From positions 1,364,001 through 1,428,000 of the forward strand of contig OZ025791.1 of NCBI GenBank assembly GCA_964019425.1: a stretch of 64,000 nucleotides of DNA. Direction: 5' to 3'. Positions 2,556 to 63,600 of this stretch are shown one piece after another (positions within the stretch are counted from its first letter, which is position 1; every line of letters begins with the position of its first letter). The notes below the pieces were generated by a model. That model ran no database searches and was not told the DNA's origin. It saw nothing but the letters and a program-made list of their open reading frames with translations. Made by a program: the position numbers and the translations under genes. This DNA is from Flectonema sp. DT1601. Taxonomy: Eukaryota.

Positions 2556-3641
2556 ATGTCAAAATACCTAAACAACGCATCAGAGGTCTTCCCTCTCACG
2601 ATACCAATCGAAGGAGCTGAACAAAATGTTGAAAAAGCAGCAGCAGCAATAGTCGATGGTTGGGATAGCTCCAAGGGATTCAAGACGTCTGTAATTTCAG
2701 GAGGAATAACAAATATGTTATTTAAAGTAGTGACAGAGAGCCATTCCGTGCTAGTCAGGGTTTATGGCGTTAATACTGAAGTTATGATTGACAGGGAACA
2801 AGAGAATAAAATTTTCGCATACCTGAGTAAAATTAAATTTGCTCCGACATACTACGGTCGTTTTGAAAATGGTAGAGTCGAGGGATGGTTGGAAGCACGT
2901 CCATTAGAATTTAGTGAAATGGGAACACTTGAAATTCAAAAATTAATTTCTTCCAAGCTGAGGGAGATGCACAGATTACAACTGCAACCAGTAGCTGAAC
3001 CACTTTTATTTCCAAAAATCAGACAATGGATTGGAATGGCCAGCGATATTACTTTCGATAATCCAGAAAAACAATCTCTTCTTAGCAAGCTAAACTTAAC
3101 CAGAATTGCTTCTGAAGCATCTCTGTGTGAGAACCAAATCCTCAACGAAGCGAGTCCCGTTATGTTAGAGAACGTATTTTCACACCAAGACTTGTTGTGT
3201 GGTAATATCTTAAAACCACTCGACTTGGATGAACATAAAGTAGTCTTTATCGACTTTGAATACGGTGGTTACAACTACAGAGGGTTTGATATTGGAAATC
3301 ACTTTGCCGAACACGCTGGATACGATTGCAATTACGAAGAAAGCTACCCAGACGATAGGATTGCGTCGTCATTCGTTAAATTATACTTCCCAACTGCTGA
3401 CGAGTCAGAACTTAAGAAGTTAACTTTAGACTCTCATCGGTTTGCTACTCTTTCACATCTTTATTGGGGATCATGGGCTGTGATTCAAGCTAAGTACTCT
3501 CCTATTGATTTCGACTTTCTTGAATATGCTCTTCTTAGATTCACTGGGTATTATTATCACAAGTCTCGTTTCTTTACATCCAATAGTAGTCATCCGACAC
3601 AATCAGAAGTTAAGAATGACATTTTAAATGGGAAGTACTAA
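2556..3641 (+). CDS. Choline/ethanolamine kinase
   Basis: ISGGITN, VLVRVYG, Brenner motif FSHQDLLCGNIL, choline kinase motif FIDFEYGGYNYRGFDIGNHFAE, C-terminal SHLYWGSWAVIQAKYSPIDFDFLEYA. Confidence 0.95.
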   Translation: MSKYLNNASEVFPLTIPIEGAEQNVEKAAAAIVDGWDSSKGFKTSVISGGITNMLFKVVTESHSVLVRVYGVNTEVMIDREQENKIFAYLSKIKFAPTYYGRFENGRVEGWLEARPLEFSEMGTLEIQKLISSKLREMHRLQLQPVAEPLLFPKIRQWIGMASDITFDNPEKQSLLSKLNLTRIASEASLCENQILNEASPVMLENVFSHQDLLCGNILKPLDLDEHKVVFIDFEYGGYNYRGFDIGNHFAEHAGYDCNYEESYPDDRIASSFVKLYFPTADESELKKLTLDSHRFATLSHLYWGSWAVIQAKYSPIDFDFLEYALLRFTGYYYHKSRFFTSNSSHPTQSEVKNDILNGKY

Positions 3642-23864: not shown

Positions 23865-26641
23865 ATGAGATGTTTTATATTTGTGTGTTTATTACAGTGG
23901 GTGAGTGCGATAACATCAGTTCCAACCCCTGAGCCAAGTGATGCAGCACCTCTTGATCTTGATATTACAGACGCTCCTCCGACAATAGCTCCGACTGATA
24001 TACCTACAGATAATCCTGTAGCGTTAACTGCTGTTCCTACTACTACACCTACTGAGATACCAACTCTAGTACCAACTAATGCACCAGCCCTGCCTACGGT
24101 ACCGCCAACGAACTCACCGACCAGTTCGCCAACCACCCCGCCTACGATTGCGCCTACTGGCGTACCTACGAGTTCTCCAACTAACTCGCCGACCAACTCG
24201 CCAACCAACTCGCCAACAGACTCGCCGACAAACTCTCCGACAAACTCTCCGACTAACTCTCCGACAGACTCGCCAACTAATTCGCCGACGAACTCTCCGA
24301 CAGACTCGCCGACTAATTCGCCGACAAACTCTCCGACAGACTCGCCGACAAACTCTCCGACGAACTCTCCGACAGACTCGCCGACTAATTCGCCGACAAA
24401 CTCTCCGACGAACTCTCCGACAGACTCGCCAACTAATTCGCCGACGAACTCGCCGACAAACTCTCCGACAGACTCGCCGACTAATTCGCCGACAAACTCT
24501 CCGACGAACTCTCCGACGAACTCTCCGACAGACTCGCCAACTAATTCGCCGACAAACTCTCCGACGAACTCTCCGACGAACTCTCCGACAGACTCGCCAA
24601 CTAGTTCGCCGACAAACTCTCCGACAAACTCTCCGACAGACTCGCCAACTAATTCGCCGACTAACTCGCCGACAAACTCTCCGACGAACTCTCCGACAGA
24701 CTCGCCAACTAATTCGCCGACAAACTCACCGACAGACTCGCCAACTAGTTCGCCGACAAACTCTCCGACAGACTCGCCAACTAATTCGCCGACAAACTCT
24801 CCGACAGACTCGCCAACTAATTCGCCGACAAACTCTCCGACGAACTCTCCGACAGACTCGCCAACTAGTTCGCCGACGAACTCTCCGACAGACTCGCCAA
24901 CTAATTCGCCGACAAACTCTCCGACGAACTCTCCGACAGACTCGCCAACTAATTCGCCGACGAACTCGCCGACAAACTCTCCGACGAACTCTCCGACAGA
25001 CTCGCCAACTAGTTCGCCGACGAACTCTCCGACAGACTCGCCAACTAATTCGCCGACAAACTCTCCGACGAACTCTCCGACAGACTCGCCAACTAATTCG
25101 CCGACAAACTCTCCGACGAACTCTCCGACAGACTCGCCAACTAGTTCGCCGACAAACTCACCGACAGACTCGCCAACTAGTTCGCCGACAAACTCTCCGA
25201 CAGACTCGCCAACTAATTCGCCGACAAACTCTCCGACAGACTCGCCAACTAATTCGCCGACGAACTCTCCGACTGACTCGCCAACTAGTTCGCCGACAAA
25301 CTCTCCGACTGACTCGCCAACTAATTCGCCGACAAACTCTCCGACTGACTCGCCAACTAGTTCGCCGACAAACTCTCCGACTGACTCGCCAACTAGTTCG
25401 CCGACGAACTCTCCGACTGACTCGCCAACTAGTTCGCCGACAAACTCTCCGACTGACTCGCCAACTAGTTCGCCGACAAACTCTCCGACTGACTCGCCAA
25501 CTAATTCGCCGACAAACTCTCCGACTGACTCGCCAACTAGTTCGCCGACAAACTCTCCGACTGACTCGCCAACTAGTTCGCCGACAAACTCTCCGACTGA
25601 CTCGCCAACTAGTTCGCCGACAAACTCTCCGACAGACTCGCCGACTAATTCGCCGACAGCATCGCCAACTAATTCACCAACCGATTCTCCGACAAACCCG
25701 CCGACAACTTCTCCAACCTCAGCACCTACAGGCCCACCGCCACTTCCAATTACAGCTGTTCCCGTTGGTCAAGAGAAGCAAGCTTTAGAGAATTCTGTCG
25801 GATCAGTACTTGAAGACGCAACACTACCACCAGAGATAACTGACATCTTAAAGAGTGGACAGGGTGGTTCACAAGAAGAATTAGTAGCTGCTATCAGATT
25901 AGCTTTAAAGAAGAATCAAGAAGGGGGAGGGTCACTATTGTCTACTTATCAACAAGAGTTGTTGCAAAATGCGTTACGAGGAGCAGCTGGATCAGAACCA
26001 ACACCACCACCACCTAATGATGAAGGGATTCCGTGGTGGATTGTATTGATTCCTTGCGTTATGTTATTAGGTTTATGTGGATTCCTGGCCTTCTACATGC
26101 AACACAAGAAGAAGTCATCTTTCCATGATGGATCAGGAGAACTAGTAGTTCCATCAGATCAAATATCACCAATTCCACAAGACTATCAATTCCCACTAGA
26201 AGGATACACTCCTCCAGAACAATCATCTCCTACGATGAATATGAAGCCTTCACCAGTTGATTTGTTATTAACACCTGCTACTGGACCAGTACCACCAGTT
26301 AATGTTACACCTCCTCCAATGGTCGGTGGGATTGCTCAATACATTCCGAGATCAACAGTTCCACGAAGAAGTACTGGATCACAAGCAATTGATAGGCTTC
26401 GTGCTCTTCCTGAAGACTCCGTTCTCGGTCACACTGCTCTCGGTGGAATTCCTTTTGCTCCACAACTTCCACCAGTAAACCATCGGCCTAGTAAATGGGT
26501 GAACACCAGATCTCCAGCAAGACGAGGTCTTGATCCGTATGTGTTATTTATTTAACTACATTGTCATTTTTCTACAAGAAAAGCAACAATAATCACAGGT
26601 TAAGCAATCCAAGAGGAGCCCTTGATCACATCGAAATATAA
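23865..26641 (+). CDS. Type I membrane mucin-like protein with (N/D/S)-S-P-T repeats; 2 predicted exons (23865-26536, 26599-26641)
   Basis: Signal peptide [15 protein letters not shown], ~500 aa of SPT tetrapeptides, [24 protein letters not shown], Pro-rich tail. Intron GTATGT..AATCACAG gives the terminus [13 protein letters not shown]. Confidence 0.88.
24170..25700 (+). repeat. Coding 12-bp minisatellite encoding xSPT
   Basis: Units such as AACTCTCCGACA / GACTCGCCAACT / AATTCGCCGACA repeated more than 100 times. Confidence 0.97.
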
Positions 26642-32567: not shown

Positions 32568-33040
32568 CAGCCTGATTCCAGAGGTTACAACTGGAGGCAA
32601 TGATTCCTGATTCCGTAGGTTCCAATTGGAGGCAATGATTCCAGATTGCAGCCTGATTCCAGAGGTTCCAACGGGAGGCAATGATTCCTGATTCCAGAGG
32701 TTACAACTGGAGGCAATGATTCCAGATTGCAGCCTGATTCCAGAGGTTCCAACGGGAGGCAATGATTCCTGATTCCGTAGGTTCCAACTGGAGGCAATGA
32801 TTCCAGATTGCAGCCTGATTCCAGAGGTTCCAACGGGAGGCAATGATTCCTGATTCCAGAGGTTCCAATTGGAGGCAATGATTCCAGATTGCAGCCTGAT
32901 TCCAGAGGTTCCAACGGGAGGCAATGATTCCTGATTCCGTAGGTTCCAACTGGAGGCAATGATTCCAAATTGCAGCCTGATTCCAGAGGTTCCAACGGGA
33001 GGCAATGATTCCTGATTCCGTAGGTTACAACTGGAGGCAA
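32568..33040. repeat. Higher-order minisatellite: 81-bp unit of two 35-bp subunits plus an 11-bp linker, ~5.8 copies
   Basis: CCTGATTCCAGAGGTTCCAACGGGAGGCAATGATT + CCTGATTCCGTAGGTTCCAACTGGAGGCAATGATT + CCAGATTGCAG repeated. Confidence 0.95.
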
Positions 33041-34380
33041 TTCCGTCATATTCCTTTTAAGTTTTTAAGCCTTTTTATGCGATGATATGTTTTGGAATTC
33101 ACAGCAGAGTTTACTTTTTCTTAATTAACTTTTACTGTTGTTTGTGTTGTAAACGACATGTTATATTGTTGTTCACCTGGCATGACGAGGCTATCTAATT
33201 TATCGACTACACTCCCTTGAACCTGATCTATTTTTAATTTCAGGGGTTAGTGTCGTGAGATATAGTAAGAGTTCCCATCCTTTTCCCCCCACATATGGGA
33301 TTTTTTGTCGATACCAATTGTTGATCTTCTTATATTGCAACCAGATTTGGCCGAACCCTATATTCGTTTTTGCCAGTTTCAAGTTGCTTTAATTTAATAT
33401 TAGTATCAAGTTATCCCCATCTCCATTTACCCTCGACAGTAGTGGCAGGTCTTCTTTGTTTTTCTTGCTGTCGACCGTAAATGCGGGCTTGTACGTTGTA
33501 AGGTGTTTCCGTTGCGTGCTCGCTTCAGGACCTTTTCTTTCGTTTTTGCGTTGTCAATACCCCGAACTGCTTCAGGACTGGATTGATAAATTATATATAT
33601 TCATCAGTAATGAATTACTGTTACGGTAACAAATGCAGGGGGGTGCCTCCAGCGGTATTTTATTTATTTTGTATGCTTCCGCTGGTTTTCCTTTCAATGT
33701 GTAAGACCTATCAAGTTACCCCGGGAGGGTACTTCGATTTTACGGAGATTTGGGCGCGTTAGAATTTCTTTTTTGGAAAACGTGTAGCCAATTTATGAAA
33801 ACTACAACATGTTCCCCAAAAATGGGGATTGCGATCCACACTTTTGGGTTTTTTCATTCCTTGTCCAAATCACCCAAAACCAGGTTTTTTCGGCCCCGAA
33901 ATCACATTTTTCGGGGTTCTGATGGGGTCCTGGGTAATTTTTGCCCCGAAAAAACAGTTTATTAGCTTGAACCCTTCCCAAGAAGAGTACTCCACTAGTA
34001 GTGCGCTGTGATAAAAAGTTTTTTTTATAATTTATTACAATAATATACTAATATACCATAATCAATAAGTAACTACACCCCAGAATTACTTTCTGAGCGG
34101 TGATTTAATCTAAATATTTGGCTGATGATAGAATAGAGGTAAAGAAGTATATGGATTACTCTCGAAACCTAATAGTTTCTTCAAAAGGCTGAGCTAAGGC
34201 ATCACCAGCTAGCTCACTGTGTCCTTAACAGATTGTTAAATTATTGTTTTTTTTGTGTTAATATTTAGTAATTCAAAACATTGTAACCCAGATTGTCGGA
34301 GAAATTGTTGTTCCTTTGAACTTAAAAATGCAGTATCAAAATATCCCTTTCCCTAATTCCTTTTCTTTTTTCCCCCCCCT

Positions 34381-48924: not shown

Positions 48925-49120
48925 GGTGAGCTCGTGTTGAGCAATCAATTCACCTCACAAGAAAACACAGCTACGCTATCTGAAGACGTTGGAATTGCGA
49001 AGGTTTGGTGAGCTCGTGTTGAGCAATCAATTCACCTCACAAGAAAACACAGCTACGCTATCTGAAGACGTTGGAATTGCGAAGGTTTGGTGAGCTCGTG
49101 TCGAGCAATCAATTCACCTC
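48925..49120 (+). repeat. 82-bp tandem repeat, ~2.4 copies
   Basis: GGTGAGCTCGTGTTGAGCAATCAATTCACCTC starts at 48925, 49007 and 49089 (one substitution in the third copy), with identical intervening sequence. Confidence 0.92.
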
Positions 49121-50410
49121 TTCATATGACCCAACTATTTATATAAAACAACTACCTACAATGTCTAATGATATGTACTACGTGTGTTCTCATCATTTTC
49201 GGACCCAGGAATAATTCTATTCTTTACATCACTATTTGGTGAGCTTGTCACCACCCCTCAAATGGATGTAACATGGAAAGATTTCCCTCTTTGTTATTAG
49301 TCAAGTTAAAACCCCCCTTTTGTTTTATTTTATTTTTATTGTTCGGTGAACTCTTTATTGTTATTCACGGAACTCGTTGTTTTTTTTTTTTTTTTTTTTT
49401 CGTTTCTTTTTTAAAGGAAAAAAAAAAAAAAAAAAAAAAGAAGGAAATAGAGGAGGAAAAAAAAGTGGAAAAGGAGTCCCCTCTCTCTACTGAGAGTCTT
49501 GTTGTGTATTATGTATGTATTTGTATTATTTAATTTTTGAGGAGGACTGTGTTTTTTATCATCGTGTCTCTAGCAGGATGACACGCTCTGCTTTTTGCCA
49601 TGGGTTTTTGTTTTAAAAAAAAAATTCCCCCTTTTCCCTTCTGTACCGCTTTACTCTCGAGACCTGAATTATTGTAACAGGAGAGTAACACAAGTTCAGT
49701 TAATGAACTGGTGTTTAATCTTCTTGTTTTAAAAGAATGATATGGTATAATATAATCGTATTGTGCTTTTCTAATTTTGTTTTTTAAAAAAAAAAATAAT
49801 AATAATAATAATAATGAAACTACAGCATTGTGAGATGTGTACTATATATCAAGTTTCTTTTTTTTCTTAATTTTTTTCTTCTTCTTCTGTTCTGTTTTAT
49901 ACTGGATCCTTTGGCAGCACAAAAACAGAATAAAGTGCCCCTTACCACCGCTGTGATGAAGTGACATGCTGTGTTTTAATTAACCAGTTGGTTTCTACAG
50001 TTCCAAGTTGACACAATGTTTTTGATCGTGAAGCTGATTCCTTTTTTTTTTATTATTATTTTTATTTTATTTTCTATTGCCGTCCTTTTTTTTGTTGTTA
50101 ATGGCTATCGGTTCTGTTTGGGTTTTCCCGCATTTTTTTTTTTTTTTTTTTTACTTTTATTTTCTTTTTTCCCCTTTTTATTTTATTTTAGTTTTTTTCA
50201 AAGAAAGAACACGGCTGGAATATTACATCTGTATCTCACTTCACAACCCGCCCAAAGAATTCAAAAAAACGCCTCAGTAACTTCATAGTAACTTCTACTA
50301 CGCCTCCACCCAGTCGTCTTTTCTGGTCCAACGATGGTTTTTTCACTATCAACCCGGTTTCGTCACCTCTTCCAAAAGACTCCGACTTCCCGTCTCTCAA
50401 CGCAACTCCA

Positions 50411-50761
50411 ATGGTGGTGGACTCTACGACTTGTTCTAATAATCCTTACCAAAACTCGCTAAAGCAGAACCATCCTAATCCACTCCCTCAGCAGGCACCA
50501 CAACCTCCAAATAATAAAGTCTCTCAGGCTTTGCCAACTCAACATACTAATGATCCATTGCAAGAACTAAAAGATCAAATCAAAGAGCTCTCTGACGCAC
50601 TTGCCGCAGAAAAGAAATTAAGTAGATCTCTCAGACGTGATCTTGATTCCCTAAAAAGCCAAAAGCAATCTGGAAACTCTGAAAAAGACCGACGTCCGCG
50701 TGCCAACTCTGCGATCACGGTCAATGATGATTTAAGAACTCGTGATACCACTAGGGAGTAG
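50411..50761 (+). CDS. Retrotransposon ORF1 (C-terminal coiled-coil part); frame is open without ATG back to ~50192
   Basis: Pro/Gln-rich segment then coiled coil LQELKDQIKELSDALAAEKKLSRSLRRDLDSLK. Same frame as ORF2 (offset 360). Confidence 0.7.
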   Translation: MVVDSTTCSNNPYQNSLKQNHPNPLPQQAPQPPNNKVSQALPTQHTNDPLQELKDQIKELSDALAAEKKLSRSLRRDLDSLKSQKQSGNSEKDRRPRANSAITVNDDLRTRDTTRE

Positions 50762-50770
50762 CAATCAACG

Positions 50771-53700
50771 ATGCCGCCTCCTCCAAAGAAACAGTACCAT
50801 GAAACTGTTACAGCACGTATAAATCTTCTACGTTCAGGTGTGCACCCTAACCCTGGGCCTCTTCGTGTCCTCTCCTGGAACATGAACCGTTATAAATCTT
50901 CTCGTCTTCATCTTGAAGACCTAGTTGCATCTTACGACCCCGATATTATTCATATCCAAGAATCATGGTTAAAAAGTGATGTATCAGATGATCTTCTTCA
51001 AATTAAAGGCTTCGATCTACATCGTCGTGACAGAGTCAGCGCAAATAAAACTGTTGGTGGAGGCCTTCTGTCTTATTTCAAATGCTCCTTACATGCCGAA
51101 TTCATCGCAGAAGACAGTAGTCATACTTATATTGAATCACTTTATTGTACATTTAAAACTGTGCTGGGTAACGTCTCGACCTGTAACATCTATATCCCTC
51201 CAGATGCTCTACACCTACCGAAATCCTTCAACTTGAGTGACCTCACCTTCGGAGACTTTAATGCCCACCACGAATCGTGGTCTTCTAACAATAAGATCCC
51301 TAGAAAAGCTTCAGGGAAGGTAGTTAGTAATTGGATACTTGATAATGGTTTGGCAGTCATACAACTTTCTCCTTCTATACCAACACACGGAACAACTCCT
51401 GACCTTGCTTTGCATTCTCCTCAGTTCAAGTGTTTCAATTCAATCCAAATAGATCCCTCTCTGGTTAACTCTGACCACACTCCTATAATCACCGATTTCG
51501 ACGTCACTCCACTCTCTTCATCCCAACAAATACCAGCCCATCGTAAATTCTTCTACGATAAATTCACGGAATTACATTGGAAAGCATTTACAGCATCTCT
51601 TGAGTCTCAGTGCCCACGTCTAAATAACATTAGATCTCTAAGCAAACTCTGCAAGGCTCTTCTCAAAACAATTGACAGTATTGCAATCTCCACCTTACCT
51701 AACAAATGGTACCCATTAAAAGCCTCACAACATCAACGCTCAAATCTCAATGCCGAAAATATTTTATTACAAAGTGGCAAGAGGGGGTTCTCTTGGACCT
51801 ATAAGAAATTACGAGAACTTAAGGGAGAGGCTACTGGACTTCACACCCCGTCTGCTCCGTTTGAATCACTTCACCAGCGCTTCTTTCCTACAGATTCACG
51901 CTCGGATGAACTTCAAATACCTACGGTTTCCCCTCAGGCCTTTTCCGATCCCTCTTGCAGGCCCTTCTCGACCTCAGAGGCCCAAGCTGTTCTGGACTCC
52001 TTGAAAAGATCAGACTCAACCGGACCTGACGCAATCTCAAATAACATGCTCCTCCACCTGGGTGAACAAGCTTTACATCTTATACTACGCATAGCCAACT
52101 GGTCATTCTATAGAGGAACACTGCCAAAATGTTTAAAAGTAGCTCATGTGATCCCAACCTATAAAGGAAACAAGAGAGACCCTACTGATGCAGCATCTTA
52201 CCGCCCTATATCTTTGACCTCAATATTATCGAAGTTTATAGAGTCTTTGATGCTCTCCAGACTGGAGCACTTATTGATAGATAAACTCGATCCCAAGCAG
52301 TCTGGATTTGTCCCCGGCAGGACAACAGACGAAAATATTGCAGTACTTATCAACGCAGCCTCCGAAACTAAAAGCGACTATCTCCAATGCGCTGTGCTCA
52401 TACTCTTTGATATTTCGGGGGCTTTCGACAACGTAGACCACAACCTACTTATGGATAGGATAAAACCTTTACTACCGACTCCCTTTGTACGATGGATAGG
52501 CAACTTCCTTTCAGATCGCACCGCTCACCTTCTTCATGGTAGTACCCGCTCAAAACCTATAGCCTGTACAAAGGGGGTTCCCCAAGGTAGTATTCTTGGC
52601 CCATTACTTTTTCGAATGTACGTTGACTCCTTACCAGAGTCCATTACGGTATCTGACACCTCACTACTATACGCCGATGATCTTGCGGTATATGTAAGTA
52701 GCTCGACAATCGACGATTTGGAAGCGAGAGCCAACAAAGCAATAGGTCAAGTAGAATGCTGGCTGGATAACTCCAGAATGTCATTATCCCATTCAAAAAC
52801 AGAATACATGTCCATAGGCAAACGTTTTACGGAAGACAAACGCATCTGTCGGCGTCCGCGTCTTTATTTCCCCTCGACAGTTGATGATGTCCCAATTCCA
52901 CGTGGGTCTTATCAATTCTTTTATGATCATATAGATGATGGGGCTGCTGCTTTACTTAACTTTGAAAACGGTCCCATCTTTCCCTTAGGTATAAATGGAC
53001 GTAGCGTGAACAATCGATCGCAATTCATAAACACCATTCCGAAGGGTGAATTTTCTTTGACAGCCGCCATCCCACTTCGTCAGGTGAAACAAACTCGGTA
53101 CCTGGGTGTTATAATTGATGATAATCTTACCTTTGAATCACAGAAAACAAAAATCCTGAACACTCTGAAACGTGGGATTGCTCTCCTATCGATGGTCTCA
53201 TCGTACCAAGTAAAGACTGAGGTGCTACGACAAGTCATTTTCGGTCTAATCCTCTCTAGAGCATATTATGGTCTAGCAGCATTTGCTCCCCTCCTCTCCA
53301 AAAAGGCGCAGGAGGAGATTGACCTGACACAACGTGTTCTCCAACGGAAACTTACCGGCTGCCTTAACTCAACAGCTACACCGGCCCTTTCAGTAGAATC
53401 CGGCATATTACCATTCAAACTACACCTTTCGAAATCTACTGCGTTGATGAATGAACGATTCTTGCGTAATAACAAGAACAGCCCCTCGTGGTCCATCTTA
53501 GACCCTGAGAAAACATCGAGCATGTGGAAAACATTTGCTTCCATCCACTCCAACAGATATCCTACTCCATCGTTGCGTTCATACCACTGCCTTCCGCATC
53601 ACCAAGCACCATGGGAGCCTCCGCCAGATGTAACTTTTAACCCCTGGAGAGAGTTCCGTAAATCCTTGGAACCTGTTCAGAACTTAGAAGCTGCTCTGTC

Positions 53701-54874
53701 AACAATGAAGAATCTCCCGCCGGCAATCGCCCGACTATACACTGACGCGTCCTATTTCCAAGACAAAGAACAGAATTATCGATGTGGCAATGCAGCCTGT
53801 CTGATCATAGGAAACAAATGCTTCTCTAAGAGGAAGCGCTATACACCTGCACTGATGATATACAATGCGGAGCAACAAGCTCTCCTATCAGCAGTTGAAC
53901 TGTTGGAAGAACACTCCTCCTGGCTCCCCAGAGGGAGAGTCCATATCATCACCGACAGTCAGTCCTCGGTAAGCAGCCTGGCAAAGGGATATCTCCGCCA
54001 GAGATCCACCACGAACATGGAAATTTTAAAACGCATAATGCTGCTCCGTCGCCCGATCACCTTCCAATTTGTGCCCTCCCATTGTGGAATAATTGGTAAC
54101 GAGCTGGCCGATTCGCAAGCAAGTAAAGCAGCGTCTTCTGATACTCTCCAAATTACAGAGGTAGCTTTCGACTACCGAATGGTTCAGTGCTCTATCACGA
54201 ATCAAGTTAACAAGATATGGTTAAGGGAAAGAGACTCTAACCACGTTCACTATTGGTCAACCCTCGGGGGAAGAATTCAACGCTTCCATCCAAACCTGAA
54301 GCGGTCTGATGAAGTACACATTTCACGCCTCCGCACGGGTCACCACCATTTGATCAAGATCCCCTCTCAGGGTCTCACGAATTGCAACTTCTGTAACGAG
54401 CCGTTAACAAGCACGCATCACTTATTATTCAATTGTCTCGCATTACGCCCAATTGTGCAACAATACTTCCCACCAACAGCAACTCTTGAACAAGGAGAAA
54501 TGGATGTCGGTCAAAACCTCCACAAATTCTTCTCGACAGAACACCAACCAGAGCTTATGAAGTTGATAATGAAATTACATGAACTCCCATTATGGCAGGC
54601 AATACCTCAACAGCACCTTATGGAACATTTGTATAAGTGGACTAGCTTTCCGACCTTCAACACAGCAACACGAAAAACAGTCGTTGCGTACATTAAAGAA
54701 GCCTACACTCTCACCGACATAGAGGAAATACATACCAATCTTGATTGGGTATGGATGTACTGCTATCCTGACTATCTTAACAACGATACAAGCATGAAAA
54801 AGCTCCTCGACAAAATCCAGGACTCCCAATACAGCCGTATCGATGCGGCGTGGTTTAACAGACAAGTTCGATAA
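50771..54874 (+). CDS. Retrotransposon ORF2: 2A-like peptide, APE endonuclease, reverse transcriptase, RNase H, CCHC knuckle
   Basis: APE: VLSWNM, IQESWL, NIYIPP, GDFNAHH, SDHTPI. RT: YRPISLTS, DISGAFDNVDH, GVPQGSILGP, YADDL, RYLGV. RNase H: LYTDAS, NAEQQAL, TDSQS, VPSHCGIIGNELAD. CCHC: CNFC..HLLFNC. Confidence 0.97.
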   Translation: MPPPPKKQYHETVTARINLLRSGVHPNPGPLRVLSWNMNRYKSSRLHLEDLVASYDPDIIHIQESWLKSDVSDDLLQIKGFDLHRRDRVSANKTVGGGLLSYFKCSLHAEFIAEDSSHTYIESLYCTFKTVLGNVSTCNIYIPPDALHLPKSFNLSDLTFGDFNAHHESWSSNNKIPRKASGKVVSNWILDNGLAVIQLSPSIPTHGTTPDLALHSPQFKCFNSIQIDPSLVNSDHTPIITDFDVTPLSSSQQIPAHRKFFYDKFTELHWKAFTASLESQCPRLNNIRSLSKLCKALLKTIDSIAISTLPNKWYPLKASQHQRSNLNAENILLQSGKRGFSWTYKKLRELKGEATGLHTPSAPFESLHQRFFPTDSRSDELQIPTVSPQAFSDPSCRPFSTSEAQAVLDSLKRSDSTGPDAISNNMLLHLGEQALHLILRIANWSFYRGTLPKCLKVAHVIPTYKGNKRDPTDAASYRPISLTSILSKFIESLMLSRLEHLLIDKLDPKQSGFVPGRTTDENIAVLINAASETKSDYLQCAVLILFDISGAFDNVDHNLLMDRIKPLLPTPFVRWIGNFLSDRTAHLLHGSTRSKPIACTKGVPQGSILGPLLFRMYVDSLPESITVSDTSLLYADDLAVYVSSSTIDDLEARANKAIGQVECWLDNSRMSLSHSKTEYMSIGKRFTEDKRICRRPRLYFPSTVDDVPIPRGSYQFFYDHIDDGAAALLNFENGPIFPLGINGRSVNNRSQFINTIPKGEFSLTAAIPLRQVKQTRYLGVIIDDNLTFESQKTKILNTLKRGIALLSMVSSYQVKTEVLRQVIFGLILSRAYYGLAAFAPLLSKKAQEEIDLTQRVLQRKLTGCLNSTATPALSVESGILPFKLHLSKSTALMNERFLRNNKNSPSWSILDPEKTSSMWKTFASIHSNRYPTPSLRSYHCLPHHQAPWEPPPDVTFNPWREFRKSLEPVQNLEAALSTMKNLPPAIARLYTDASYFQDKEQNYRCGNAACLIIGNKCFSKRKRYTPALMIYNAEQQALLSAVELLEEHSSWLPRGRVHIITDSQSSVSSLAKGYLRQRSTTNMEILKRIMLLRRPITFQFVPSHCGIIGNELADSQASKAASSDTLQITEVAFDYRMVQCSITNQVNKIWLRERDSNHVHYWSTLGGRIQRFHPNLKRSDEVHISRLRTGHHHLIKIPSQGLTNCNFCNEPLTSTHHLLFNCLALRPIVQQYFPPTATLEQGEMDVGQNLHKFFSTEHQPELMKLIMKLHELPLWQAIPQQHLMEHLYKWTSFPTFNTATRKTVVAYIKEAYTLTDIEEIHTNLDWVWMYCYPDYLNNDTSMKKLLDKIQDSQYSRIDAAWFNRQVR

Positions 54875-56787
54875 CTCTCCTTTAGTTATATACAACATTA
54901 TCAAAAAAAATAAAATAAAGAAAAATTCTATCCCTTACAGAATCTAAACGCCCCGCCCCCAGAGTCTTTGTTTTTATATATTTTATTTTATTTTCTTTTT
55001 AATTTTATTTATTCATTTATTTGTTTTCTTTTCTCTTTAGTTATCCTCATATCACTTCCTGACAACAATCGGACAAGGTGGAAAGCTGACAATAGGCATA
55101 CTGTGTTCATTATGCCCCGTCAGCCGAAGCTATAATAAAACAATCCTAATAAGATTGGGTCTAATTACGTTGCTGTTGCCTCGTAGCTCTAGGGAGTTAA
55201 CCCGATGCTCCCTAGTTTGCTGTATCAGCGATGCACAGTACGCAATGTATTGGACTTCCTTATCTATCTATCTATCTATCTTTTTTTTTTTTTTTTTGAG
55301 GCGGGGAAAACGATACAAAAAAACCAACCGGGGGAAGGGTTAGATGTTTCCCTTTCGAACAGACAAGCTGCTTTTACGCAAGTTGTTTGTTTTTTTTATT
55401 TCATTCTATTCACACCTAAAAATGAAATGTGTAGCCTACTGATGTAATTACTCAGTGCTACTCTTCGTACGAGATGATGAGTGATTTATTAACAACCTGT
55501 CGAGGGGGTGCTGTCAGGGATTCCCTTCGTCGGAGTTTTTTTCCATTTCTTTTTCCCTTTTTTTTTTTCAGCAGCATTTTTTTTTTGTGTTCTATTATTT
55601 CTTACAATATTTCCCATCTTTCTCTCATCCCTTTTTTTTTGTTCTGTTTATCGTTATTATGTTACCCTCATTTCTATTTTTCTGAAGCAATTTTGAAGCT
55701 ACGTGGGTGATTTTGTGGCACGTTCATTCTTGTTTTTCGGAGACTCGAAGAGCAAACTACCACTGCCTTTTTAGCATCTTGCAAAGTTCTTACAAAGAAG
55801 CTTTGTGAGTGTTTTTTTTGTTCTTCCCTCCCCTTCTTCAGTTTACTAAATGAATAGTGTGATTCGTACCTGGATTTGTACATTACTGATGGTCACAACG
55901 TCGAGGTATCAAATGACTGATATCCCGTATGCTTACCATGATGTACAAGTGTTAGGATTTCTAAAATAAATAAATACAACAAACCAAAAAAAAAAAAAAA
56001 AAAAAAAGGTAAGCAACAAAGCGGTAACAAAACTGATTGGAAAAAAAAATAAATTCGGTTCGGATCGAATAAATAGAACGACGTTAAAAATTGCGTTAAG
56101 TTAACGTTTCGAGGACTGAAAATTGAAAGAAAAAAGTTACCCCTCGAGATAACTTGATTGAATTGAAGACAACTGAACTTTTCTTTTGAAAAAAAAAAAA
56201 AGTGAAAAAGAGCTATTATTATGTTGTATCTGGTGAGCAACATGCAAAAGATCAATTTCTTCTTATCGTCCTCATTTTTCGTGCAAAACTATATTACCAG
56301 AATGACAATTTTATTTTATATAAAGATAAAGAGCAAGGATCAGATTTCAGAAAGAAGAAGAAGAAGAAAAAAAAAAAAATACTTATCCCTCGAAAAGAAG
56401 TAATCAACAGGCAATTATTTATTTTATTATTATTTTCTTTTTATAAACATCCATCATGTTACCCTGGTCGCAAGCAAATGAAGAAACAAACCAATTTGAA
56501 TATATGGAACGAACGTAATAATTAATACTACGGTGTATACATACAATGTAGTACTTTACTGTTTTCTGATTTAGTTGCGAAGGCTATTTATATTATTGTT
56601 TTTTTTTTCTTGTCTTTTCTTTTTTTGACACACACCAACACAAGAGATATGTGAGCTTGTTTTAATCAAAGCAAATTCTTTGCATCTGCAAACTGAGCAA
56701 CATTTTTTTTTTTTTTTTTTTTTTCAAAAGTCAAATTTTCAAAGAAATTAAGAAATCACAAACAGAAACATGCAAAAAATAGCATTC

Positions 56788-60683: not shown

Positions 60684-63600
60684 ATGAACGAGTCAAATGG
60701 AAAAGCAAAACAGATATCCTTGTTGCTAATTGACCTCAGACAGAATGCTATTTCTGGAGAAGGACGAGGGGTTGTAGTTGCAGATACAGGTTTACTACTT
60801 GCTAGTATCGATGAAATAATACACAAAGTCGAAGGTGCAGACGAGTGGTCTGCTGTTGGAGATGTCTTATTCAACAGAACGGAAGGCATTTTTCGATTTG
60901 TTGATTTGGTCGTTAAAATAAAAACAGCATCACTCGCCTCAACAAGAGCTGATACTATGAGTACTACTGATGGAGGCTTAAAAAGTGCGATCGACTTGGT
61001 TACGTATTTCATATCAACTTCAAGATCAACTCAACATAATACCTACATCACTCTGCAGTGTGGTGAATTACTTAGAAGAACTACAGCAATACGAGGGATT
61101 AGTTTATTTCAAGAAGCATTGTTTGGACCACTCACTTACACAATTGAGAATTGTATTGACCTTTCGATATCTGCGGGTGATATCGGAGTAGTGGAGTTGT
61201 TGGATACGCTTCTTAAAATCACAACGCAATCATCATCTCGTAAAGCTTCGCTGTTCTCTCAGAGAGTCCGAAGATGTTCTCTTGCAACTTTAGGTTTGAT
61301 CACAAAAATATTTCCTGCTGAATGCTCATTGCGATCTCCAGACATAACAATTTCATTCAAACAAACCCTCGAACACATTGTGAAGTCAGAATCACCTGAA
61401 TTTACAGTCGCTGCTGGTCTGTTGGACGGAATTACCAATTTCTTACATAACTTTTCAAACACAGAAGATCACAACTGGATTGAAACTCTTTATAAATTTA
61501 TGATCAGAGGAATGGAGTTAATCGACCACACTCGTTATGATCTTCCGAAGGCAGCTCTTCGTCTTCTTAAGAATCACGCGAAGTTATTTAGAAAACTTTT
61601 ATTAAAAGACAGAATGATATTTGGATTACTCAGAGCATTAGTCTCTCACAGGAATGATTATCTCAGAAAAGCAGCTATTCCGGCAGTGGGTCCTTATGCT
61701 GGAACACTTGCTGTGGAAATCGTAAATAACAAAACATCTGATGAAAGGTCCAGACTGAGTATTTTCAAAAATGTTTACAGCAATGCATCAGAACTCACTA
61801 TTCAAGGTGGACAAGGTCATAAAGTATCACTTGGTGTACTTACTATGGGATATTTATCTCCAGCTGCTGTTTTCTTTAATGGATCAGAGGCTGGTCATAA
61901 CATCTTGTCGGTGTTGTTATCGAAGTTTATTAATATGTTTACATCAATAGACGATGAGTTAATTGGTGATTCAATCAGGTTGATTCCTTCTTATATTGAT
62001 GCGATTTCTGCTGCCGTCTCCAGCACGTCATCGACTCTTCCGTCTCTTTTAGAACAAAACCTCTCGGAATGTATTCGAATTGTTTGGATTCATTATCCAA
62101 GGCCTTATACTTTTACTTCAACTAGAGTGAAGATTCACACGACTCTCGTCAGACTGTTACTCGCAATCTATAACTCAACTGATGGATTACAAAGGATATT
62201 AAGAAGTGTAATGTTCAGTATTGTGTCGCTTACTATTTCAGGAACAGAATCGATTCCTGTCGAATACAACAAACTTTGGAATAGTATCTGTTCTATCTCA
62301 GCTGCTACGGTATGATCTCTTATAGTTTATTAGGATAATATTATGGTAAAGTAAAGTATTAATAATAAACAAAACAAATCAAAACAGGTTTGGGATTACC
62401 CTTGGGATAACATCCTCGGTTCTGTAAGTACTGGACACCATCTTCACATGACGAGTATTGTTGTTGATTCTGTTGCGACCACAGTAATGCAACTGGTCTC
62501 AAGACTTGATTTATCATTTCATAAAGACTCAACAGATGACGTCCCTTTGGCAAGAAATCCAAAAGACTTCACTCTGTTTCATAACGTTGTGGCGTTTTGG
62601 AATAAATTATTTGAAAAAGTACGAGACCCTGGGATCATAAACGATTGGTGTTTATCCTTAGCCGTAAAGTGGATAGAGTTAAGTGAAGTATATCCTCATG
62701 TTAGTGGGTTTTATTCTCTCTTGACAATCGTAGTACGCAAGGCAACAACCATCGAAGAAGAAGCTCCTGCGACTCAACCAGCAAACAATACCAACGATCC
62801 CGAATTTAATCAAATTATAAGAAAGTTCATTGCTGACACACTTAAGAATGTCGAAAGTAGGTTCAAAGGTGAGATTCTCATAGCCGGATGTAAATTTTTG
62901 TTGTCGCTACCAGTGCAGTTGGTTGAACTTCCTAAGATGAAAAGTACGTTAGAGATCTCATTAAACATTGGACTATCACTTCCAACAATAGCAAGGATAA
63001 CAATTGATACTTTAGAAAGATGGATAGAATCGAGTAATGCGGAGGAAGCTGCTAAGCTCGTTGCTCCTTCGATTCCAATTCTCCGCTCATTTGTAGCCAC
63101 TGCCCATGAAAAACTCCACACAGATGGAGGTGAGTCTTCTCACGACAATGAAGTTTCCATCCTTCGCGATCTACAAGTCCGTATAATCATAATCTTGGGA
63201 AAACTAGGACCACTACAACTGACATCTAAATCAGAAGAAAAAAAGCTCGACGACGGAATTGAACCTCCATGGGATGTCGTCAGCCGAGTTGAGATAAAAT
63301 TGCCTTTCGATGCGAACTACACGCTGGCTTTTGATAAATTATTACCCAGAATCTGTACTTTATCATTAACAAGTAATGACAGAAAGGCAAAGACTGCATC
63401 ATGTGAATTACTACATAGCATAATAATATGGATGGTTGGGACCAACGCTCACAGCTTAAAGACAACTTCAGCGACGCAGGATTCTCCGGTAGAGACGGCA
63501 ACACCTTTTCATAAAATATACAGCAAAGTGTTTCCAGTAGTTTGCCAACTGGCTGTTGACTCAGAACCCATCGCAAGTCAGATGTTCACAAAACTACTTC

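What the first reader, a model, noticed from the sequence alone, without database searches (positions are those of the whole stretch)
50759..50770. LINE ORF1-ORF2 junction is an in-frame UAG in a TMV-type readthrough context
Seen: ORF1 ends GAG TAG CAA TCA ACG ATG, in frame with ORF2, with only three codons between the stop and the ATG. Established: UAG-CAR-YYA is the tobacco mosaic virus leaky-stop consensus, and CAA-TCA fits it exactly. Other genes here end at TAG (8997, 17537, 18830), so UAG is a normal stop. Inference: ORF2 may be made by programmed readthrough that sets the ORF1:ORF2 ratio, a gag-pol-like strategy unusual for non-LTR elements.
Basis: partly seen in the sequence, partly recalled or inferred. 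Interest (0 to 1): 0.85.

Follow-up and report, generated by a model that had tools for sequence, protein, structure and literature searches.

The report
LINE genes joined by leaky stop
A young jumping gene (a LINE retrotransposon) of a single-celled eukaryote has its two genes in one reading frame, split by one UAG stop in the same six-letter context that makes the tobacco mosaic virus stop leaky, so its copying enzyme is likely made when ribosomes now and then read through that stop.

Summary
Observation confirmed: GAG TAG CAA TCA ACG ATG at 50756-50773, ORF1 and ORF2 in frame, an exact fit to CARYYA (chance about 1 in 330-440 per stop, about 1 in 1,000 with frame; 0 of 18 other long-ORF stops match). 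The element is a young APE-RT-RNase H LINE; this copy is 5'-truncated inside ORF1. The stop is not copy-specific: a 489-aa ORF1 from another contig ends at the same residue, and none of 10 ORF2 cluster members is fused to ORF1. In two sister families (57% and 53% identical, same assembly) every near-full-length ORF2 call but one aberrant copy starts inside the endonuclease, which suggests that they have no usable AUG. Against: I had no DNA for any other copy, so conservation of the motif is untested; ATG 50771 has A at -3 and could serve reinitiation. A 2A-like peptide precedes the endonuclease but is non-canonical. Readthrough of the ORF1 stop has been proposed before for 12 Paramecium LINE families, so the strategy is not new in kind; a TMV-type UAG signal in a LINE was not found in my searches. 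Readthrough about 60%.

The parts
50204..50758 (+). 3' part of ORF1 (residues 305-489 of the 489-aa ORF1 P0083); 5'-truncated copy; ends in a coiled coil and a charged tail
   Evidence: tblastn of P0083 on the window: 185 of 189 identical, homology starts at about 50204; helix 422-460 is the only part of the model above pLDDT about 70
50759..50761 (+). ORF1 stop codon TAG, in frame with ORF2
   Evidence: P0083 from another contig ends at the same residue
50762..50767 (+). CAA TCA, exact match to the TMV-type readthrough hexamer CARYYA
   Evidence: motif definition from PMC2754532
50771..50773 (+). First in-frame ATG of ORF2, 9 nt after the stop, A at -3
   Evidence: 4 full-length proteins on 5 contigs are called from this position, one with an extra Met just before it
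50825..50860 (+). Non-canonical 2A-like peptide (LLRSGVHPNPGP; no Asp, His in place of Glu) directly before the endonuclease; activity untested, probably low
   Evidence: translation; the same position holds a 2A-like motif in relatives P0085 and P0066; canonical motif and the E-to-H effect from PMC3708506 section 7
50771..54874 (+). ORF2, 1,367 aa, intact
50870..51478 (+). APE endonuclease domain
   Evidence: PF03372 E 2.7e-9, PF14529 E 1.8e-10
52178..53113 (+). Reverse transcriptase (YADD), with an insertion shared by the closest relatives
   Evidence: PF00078 E 1.2e-32; alignment
53735..54133 (+). RNase H domain
   Evidence: PF00075 E 3.3e-9
54383..54436 (+). C-terminal Cys/His zinc-finger-like motif
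   Evidence: read from the translation; kept in relatives
55170..55280 (+). Possible 3' end of the element: a stable hairpin (55170-55240) followed by (TATC)5; the boundary is not established
   Evidence: fold z = -4.1, 1 of 200 shuffles as stable; repeat read from sequence; no clean target-site duplication found

Best explanation
This is a young two-ORF LINE whose ORF1 ends at an in-frame UAG followed by CAA-UCA, and ORF2 is likely made by programmed readthrough of that stop. Shown: the frame, the motif, the stop shared by at least two copies, an intact ORF2, several near-identical copies. Inferred: most ribosomes stop and release the 489-aa ORF1 protein; a few percent insert an amino acid at UAG and go on through Q-S-T-M into ORF2, giving a predicted 1,860-aa ORF1-ORF2 fusion and so many ORF1 molecules per enzyme, as with retroviral gag-pol. 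The non-canonical 2A-like peptide 30 codons later may release some free enzyme, but the fusion is the more likely product. On this reading ATG 50771 is incidental or a secondary route.
For: Exact CARYYA and frame at the one junction where they matter, about 1e-3 by chance; 0 of 18 other long-ORF stops match. Stop shared: P0083 (489 aa; contig of 651,521 bp, the same length as the contig of ORF2 copy P0003) ends at the same residue. No fusion: 0 of 10 cluster members exceed 1,367 aa; the search of 332-2,000-aa proteins with ORF1 returned only P0083. The family is young (98-100% protein identity among copies), and this copy is a 5'-truncated insertion carrying the stop, so the source RNA probably had it (inference). 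Sister families B (57%) and C (53%) form a 100%-supported clade with it and share contig lengths with it. All 4 full-length B proteins (7 contigs) start at the equivalent of residue 38, and 5 of 6 examined long C proteins at residue 78 (the sixth has an unrelated N-terminus), that is after the first endonuclease motif (Pfam match starts at profile position 18 and 151 instead of 1). The gene caller took the first ATG in 11 of 12 window ORFs tested, so B and C probably have no AUG there. Precedent: 12 Paramecium Group 3 families have an in-frame stop about 105-140 nt before the endonuclease core; here the distance is about 110 nt.
Against: No DNA of any other copy or sister family was obtained, so neither the identity of their stop nor the hexamer is confirmed; P0083 shows only where ORF1 ends, and its adjacency to P0003 is inferred from equal contig length. 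For the other three full-length ORF2 occurrences no ORF1 was found, so they say nothing on the stop. ATG 50771 lies 9 nt after the stop with A at -3, as in 11 of 17 host starts, and a distant relative (P0085, 28%) also has a called start about 30 residues before its NPGP. Start calls are fallible: in distant family D, 1 of 6 proteins examined (99.5% identical to the rest) is called 37 residues further upstream. Lack of an AUG in B and C also fits a frameshift or AUG-independent restart. No strong downstream structure (z -1.0, -1.2, -2.3 in three windows), though the TMV type needs none. Whether CARYYA works in this host is unknown.
Confidence: 0.6

Rival explanations
1. Termination-reinitiation at AUG: ribosomes stop at the UAG and a fraction restart at ATG 50771, 9 nt on, as in other two-ORF LINEs; frame and hexamer are coincidence.
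For: ATG close to the stop with A at -3; all 4 full-length ORF2 proteins keep this Met and one has two; reinitiation is the route shown for SART1 and proposed for mammalian L1 (PMC5972666 and PMC10275272, passages); P0085 has a start at a similar distance from its 2A-like motif.
Against: Needs a 1e-3 coincidence; the closest sister families seem to have no such AUG; with Met at 1.2-1.6% of residues an ATG somewhere in a 40-codon leader is expected about 40-50% of the time, so its presence says little; no UAAUG-type overlap.
Confidence: 0.22
2. AUG-independent restart (L1-like): post-termination ribosomes resume near the stop at any codon, in this family and in the AUG-less sisters; the 2A-like site could trim the N-terminus.
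For: Explains families B and C without readthrough. That human L1 ORF2 tolerates loss of its AUG is recalled (Alisch et al. 2006); one search shows only that an unconventional restart was proposed.
Against: Does not explain the exact hexamer or the frame.
Confidence: 0.08
3. RNA processing: if the host is a euglenozoan, a spliced leader is trans-spliced to the AG of this TAG, giving a separate ORF2 mRNA that starts at ATG 50771.
For: All 17 long host ORFs lie on one strand without evident introns and are separated by T-rich tracts, like the gene clusters described for Diplonema and trypanosomes (PMC10161547, passages); AG lies 9 nt before the ATG.
Against: Host identity is inferred, not shown. 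The best 20-nt pyrimidine count upstream is 13, lower than in 14 of 17 host starts (a weak test). It cannot serve families with no AUG, and would separate ORF2 from the full-length RNA it must copy (inference).
Confidence: 0.07
4. The element has one long ORF and the TAG is a nonsense mutation in a dead sub-lineage.
For: Only two copies show the stop, and their ORF2s differ by one residue (99.93%), so they could be close siblings of one mutant; Ingi-type elements have a single ORF with 2A (PMC3894237).
Against: No fused protein in this family or in B, C, D; ORF2 is intact in several copies; the mutation would have to fall in front of an exact CARYYA.
Confidence: 0.03

Closest known systems
Paramecium tetraurelia non-LTR retrotransposons, Group 3 (Guerin et al. 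2017, PMC5405496; passages and 12 rows of Table S3 seen)
   Same: ORF1 and ORF2 in one frame with a single stop; readthrough proposed from sequence; similar stop-to-endonuclease distance.
   Different: A ciliate clade without a listed RNase H; the stop there must be UGA because of the ciliate code (recalled); I did not read out their 3' contexts; no 2A-like motif mentioned in the passages seen.
TMV type I readthrough signal, UAG-CAR-YYA (PMC2754532, passages)
   Same: Stop and hexamer match exactly; it sets a ratio of short to extended protein, with the polymerase in the extension.
   Different: Described for plant RNA viruses; used as a test motif for LTR elements (PMC3441728, passages; SIRE1 env readthrough is recalled). 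Not measured here.
Ingi clade (L1Tc, ingi) with N-terminal 2A (PMC3708506 passages and section 7; PMC3894237 parts 1-2 of 3)
   Same: APE-RT-RNase H layout (RNase H in Ingi recalled) with a 2A-like peptide directly before the endonuclease.
   Different: Ingi elements are reported to have no ORF1; this one has a 489-aa ORF1, and its 2A-like motif lacks two key residues.
SART1 and mammalian L1 ORF2 translation (reviews PMC5972666, PMC10275272, passages; primary SART1 paper not held)
   Same: Two-ORF LINEs that make little ORF2 from one RNA.
   Different: SART1 uses an overlapping UAAUG with downstream structure, L1 a 63-nt spacer; here the spacer is 9 nt, in frame, with a readthrough hexamer.

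Membership tests
APE-type non-LTR retrotransposon | ORF2 with APE endonuclease and reverse transcriptase | tested here: met
   nearest solved sequences are R2 and L1 ORF2 proteins
APE-type non-LTR retrotransposon | Dispersed copies with variable 5' truncation | tested here: met
   10 cluster members on contigs of 234-999 kb; this copy lacks ORF1 residues 1-304
APE-type non-LTR retrotransposon | Upstream ORF1 with nucleic-acid-binding domains | tested here: inconclusive
   489-aa ORF exists; no Pfam family at cut-off; Atlas hits 0.84 or lower, some CCHC/RRM clusters; model pLDDT 38
APE-type non-LTR retrotransposon | 3' tail and target-site duplication | tested here: inconclusive
   A-rich run near 54900 or (TATC)5 at 55261-55280; only low-complexity flank matches
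Ingi clade | RNase H and C-terminal zinc finger in ORF2 (feature recalled) | tested here: met
Ingi clade | Single ORF, no ORF1 | tested here: not met
   489-aa ORF1; definition
Ingi clade | RT groups with named Ingi/L1Tc sequences | not testable with these tools
   tree of 61 unnamed RTs only
2A StopGo peptide | GD(V/I)ExNPGP motif | tested here: not met
   SGVHPNPGP: Asp absent, Glu replaced by His; an E-to-H natural variant had very low activity
TMV type I readthrough | UAG followed by CARYYA, in frame with a downstream ORF | tested here: met
TMV type I readthrough | Context conserved across relatives | not testable with these tools
   no DNA of other copies:
TMV type I readthrough | Measured readthrough product | not testable with these tools
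   needs reporter, profiling or mass spectrometry
SART1-type translational coupling | Overlapping stop-start (UAAUG) | tested here: not met
   stop and ATG are 9 nt apart and in frame

The most novel reading that the evidence does not exclude
A protist LINE lineage, in which the sister families have no ORF2 start codon at all, makes its reverse transcriptase by TMV-type UAG readthrough and then uses a 2A-like StopGo site 30 codons later to free part of the enzyme from ORF1: two recoding signals in series, gag-pol logic in a non-LTR element, and a natural reporter for stop-codon leakiness in a probably euglenozoan host.
Probability: 0.2. Interest if true: 0.78.

Novelty: new variant of a known kind. 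Interest (0 to 1): 0.5.

Why it matters
How LINEs translate ORF2 from a two-gene RNA is described as an open question (PMC3894237, PMC3708506), and the worked-out cases use reinitiation. Readthrough has only been proposed from consensus sequences (Paramecium). This junction carries a motif with a known mutational signature, so it makes the readthrough route directly testable with a few point mutants. It would also show that LINEs with ORF1 can keep a 2A-like site, against the reported trend that 2A goes with loss of ORF1, and that database ORF2 proteins of this lineage are mis-started.

Tried and rejected
Getting DNA of other copies failed: no genome is held; the one sequencing run listed (X1, contigs, no RNA holder listed) has 4 laid contigs, none covering the junction; scans of metagenome, viral and prokaryote collections gave only distant LINEs or chance hits (L001/L002: an unrelated LINE whose ORFs overlap out of frame; L003; L004). 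A pattern scan for the hexamer followed by an NPGP motif in viral contigs gave 2 matches, neither in a LINE frame. Whether run X1 covers single-copy neighbours, which would have helped fix the 3' end, stays open. UAG as a sense codon was rejected: long host ORFs end at TAG, TAA and TGA (4, 8, 5 of 17). A -1 frameshift was rejected for this family: no slippery heptamer in 50601-50900 and none is needed. No Rfam match of note in 49900-55600 (1 hit, E 0.78). A 9-nt match between the stop region and the 3' hairpin was seen by eye and dismissed as within chance (rough estimate about 10%, not computed in a call). The ORF1 model was too poor for a fold search. Host identification by PDB and Atlas gave nothing. 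The tree is the quick version; the careful search did not finish. Literature searches listed no non-LTR element with UAG-CARYYA; the library holds only open-licence PMC and bioRxiv papers, and I read listings only for most hits.

Full report
Observation. The window reads GAG TAG CAA TCA ACG ATG at 50756-50773. The frame that ends at this TAG (50192-50761) and the frame that follows (50762-54874) are in phase. CAATCA fits CARYYA, which PMC2754532 (passages) gives as the six bases essential for readthrough of the TMV UAG. The host uses all three stops: of 17 long ORFs 4 end at TAG, 8 at TAA, 5 at TGA. The hexamer is expected at 1 in 326 (element composition) to 1 in 437 (window composition) positions and occurs at 5 of 4,666 positions in the element; 0 of 18 other long-ORF stops carry it. 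Together with the frame that is about 1e-3. The 9-mer occurs 8 times in the window, so only its place makes it notable; and the scan reads many LINEs, so a few chance cases are expected overall.

What the element is. ORF2 (1,367 aa from ATG 50771) has APE endonuclease, reverse transcriptase and RNase H domains and a Cys/His finger near its end. Its 90% cluster has 10 members on other long contigs, 4 of them full length (5 contig occurrences), 97.6-100% identical: a young family. The window's ORF1 is a remnant. A search of longer proteins found P0083, 489 aa, whose residues 305-489 match the window from about 50204 and which ends at the same residue as the window's ORF1. It lies on a contig of the same length as the one holding ORF2 copy P0003; adjacency is inferred. 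So this copy is a 5'-truncated insertion next to a T-rich tract, and the stop is shared by at least two copies. No fused ORF1-ORF2 protein turned up (0 of 10 cluster members; searches over 332-2,000 and 751-2,393 aa). For the other three full-length ORF2 occurrences no ORF1 was found, so they do not bear on the stop. ORF1 has no Pfam family at cut-off, only weak Atlas look-alikes and a poor model apart from a C-terminal helix. The 3' end is unsettled: an A-rich run near 54900 or a hairpin (z -4.1) plus (TATC)5 ending at 55280; no clean target-site duplication. The host looks like a euglenozoan (one-strand, apparently intronless gene array; compare PMC10161547, passages), but this is inference; searches did not identify it.

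Sister families. A, B and C form one clade with 100% SH-aLRT in a quick tree of 61 RT segments. All 4 full-length B proteins, on 7 contigs, are called from the Met equivalent to residue 38 of ORF2, just after the first endonuclease motif; 5 of the 6 long C proteins examined are called from the equivalent of residue 78, past the second motif too, and the sixth has an unrelated N-terminus. The Pfam endonuclease match starts at profile position 1 for the window, 18 for B and 151 for C. These motifs hold catalytic residues (recalled from L1 endonuclease work), and B and C copies are over 99% identical to each other, so they are probably active and their real ORF2 must begin upstream of the called start. 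The caller chose the first ATG in 11 of 12 window ORFs tested, so B and C probably have no AUG there. Against this: in family D 1 of 6 proteins examined is called 37 residues further up, and the distant representative P0085 has a called start about 30 residues before its 2A-like motif, while P0086 starts inside the endonuclease. This is protein-level, indirect evidence; it favours a route without AUG but does not tell readthrough from frameshifting or AUG-free restart in those families.

A second signal. Residues 19-30 of ORF2 are 2A-like and sit directly before the endonuclease, as in L1Tc and ingi; relatives P0085 and P0066 have such a motif at the same place. It departs from GD(V/I)ExNPGP by lacking the Asp and having His for Glu, and a natural E-to-H variant had very low activity (PMC3708506 section 7). 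I treat it as weak or vestigial. Those authors report that 2A mostly goes with absence of ORF1, with a few exceptions; a 2026 preprint notes two cases of 2A between fused ORF1 and ORF2 (10.64898/2026.06.17.732966, passages; its supplements are closed and may list variants like this one).

Mechanism. Most likely (0.6): termination at UAG gives ORF1 protein, and motif-driven readthrough at a few percent gives an ORF1-ORF2 fusion of 1,860 aa (489 + 1 + 3 + 1,367). Rivals: reinitiation at ATG 50771, which has A at -3 like 11 of 17 host starts (0.22); AUG-independent restart (0.08); spliced-leader trans-splicing at the AG of the TAG, for which the upstream pyrimidine content is on the low side (0.07); a nonsense mutation in a single ORF (0.03). 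There is no slippery site and no strong downstream structure (z -1.0 to -2.3). The decisive comparison, the DNA junctions of other copies and families, could not be made.

Comparison and novelty. It is an APE-type LINE; it resembles Ingi in ORF2 layout but fails the no-ORF1 criterion, and clade placement was not testable. Readthrough of the ORF1 stop has been proposed for Paramecium Group 3 (PMC5405496: passages; 12 table rows with 'in-frame stop'), a lead I took from earlier notes of this scan, which also describe other LINEs with in-frame UGA junctions that I did not check. The worked-out LINE cases are reinitiation. Eight library searches listed no non-LTR element with UAG-CARYYA; coverage is limited to open-licence papers. 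Verdict: a real feature, a new variant of a known kind, interest 0.5.

Noticed in passing
window 50825-50860: Non-canonical 2A-like peptide between the leaky stop and the endonuclease; a strict 2A-like pattern also occurs in 24 of 149 related representative proteins.
   Followed up: partly
P0022, P0052 and P0026 families (other contigs; a B copy and D copies lie on a contig of the same length as this window's): At least four LINE families with multiple intact near-identical copies in this assembly; their database ORF2 proteins mostly start inside the endonuclease.
   Followed up: partly
window 55170-55280: Stable hairpin (z -4.1) followed by (TATC)5; may be the LINE 3' recognition stem-loop and tail.
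   Followed up: partly
window 52860-53080 (inside RT): An insertion of about 80 residues between RT motifs, shared by families A-C and P0085-P0087 but absent from family D.
   Followed up: no
window 48925-49137: Perfect 82-nt tandem repeat, about 2.4 copies, in the intergenic region upstream of the LINE.
   Followed up: no
window 23865-26555: 896-aa Pro/Thr-repeat protein (PF04886) with a 569-codon overlapping frame that is probably a by-product of the repeat.
   Followed up: no
window 32585-33049 (- strand): Short ORF made of a tandem repeat of about 28 aa; the region 32.4-40.5 kb has no long + strand ORF.
   Followed up: no
window 60684-62315: 543-aa ORF matching only the N-terminal part of DNA-PKcs (PF20500, E 9e-23); the gene may continue beyond this ORF.
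   Followed up: no
L001 about 3050-3080: Unrelated marine LINE with a zinc-knuckle ORF1 overlapping ORF2 out of frame, ORF1 stop next to an ORF2 ATG.
   Followed up: no
L004: A contig of a bacterial MAG carries a eukaryote-type LINE, probably contamination.
   Followed up: no
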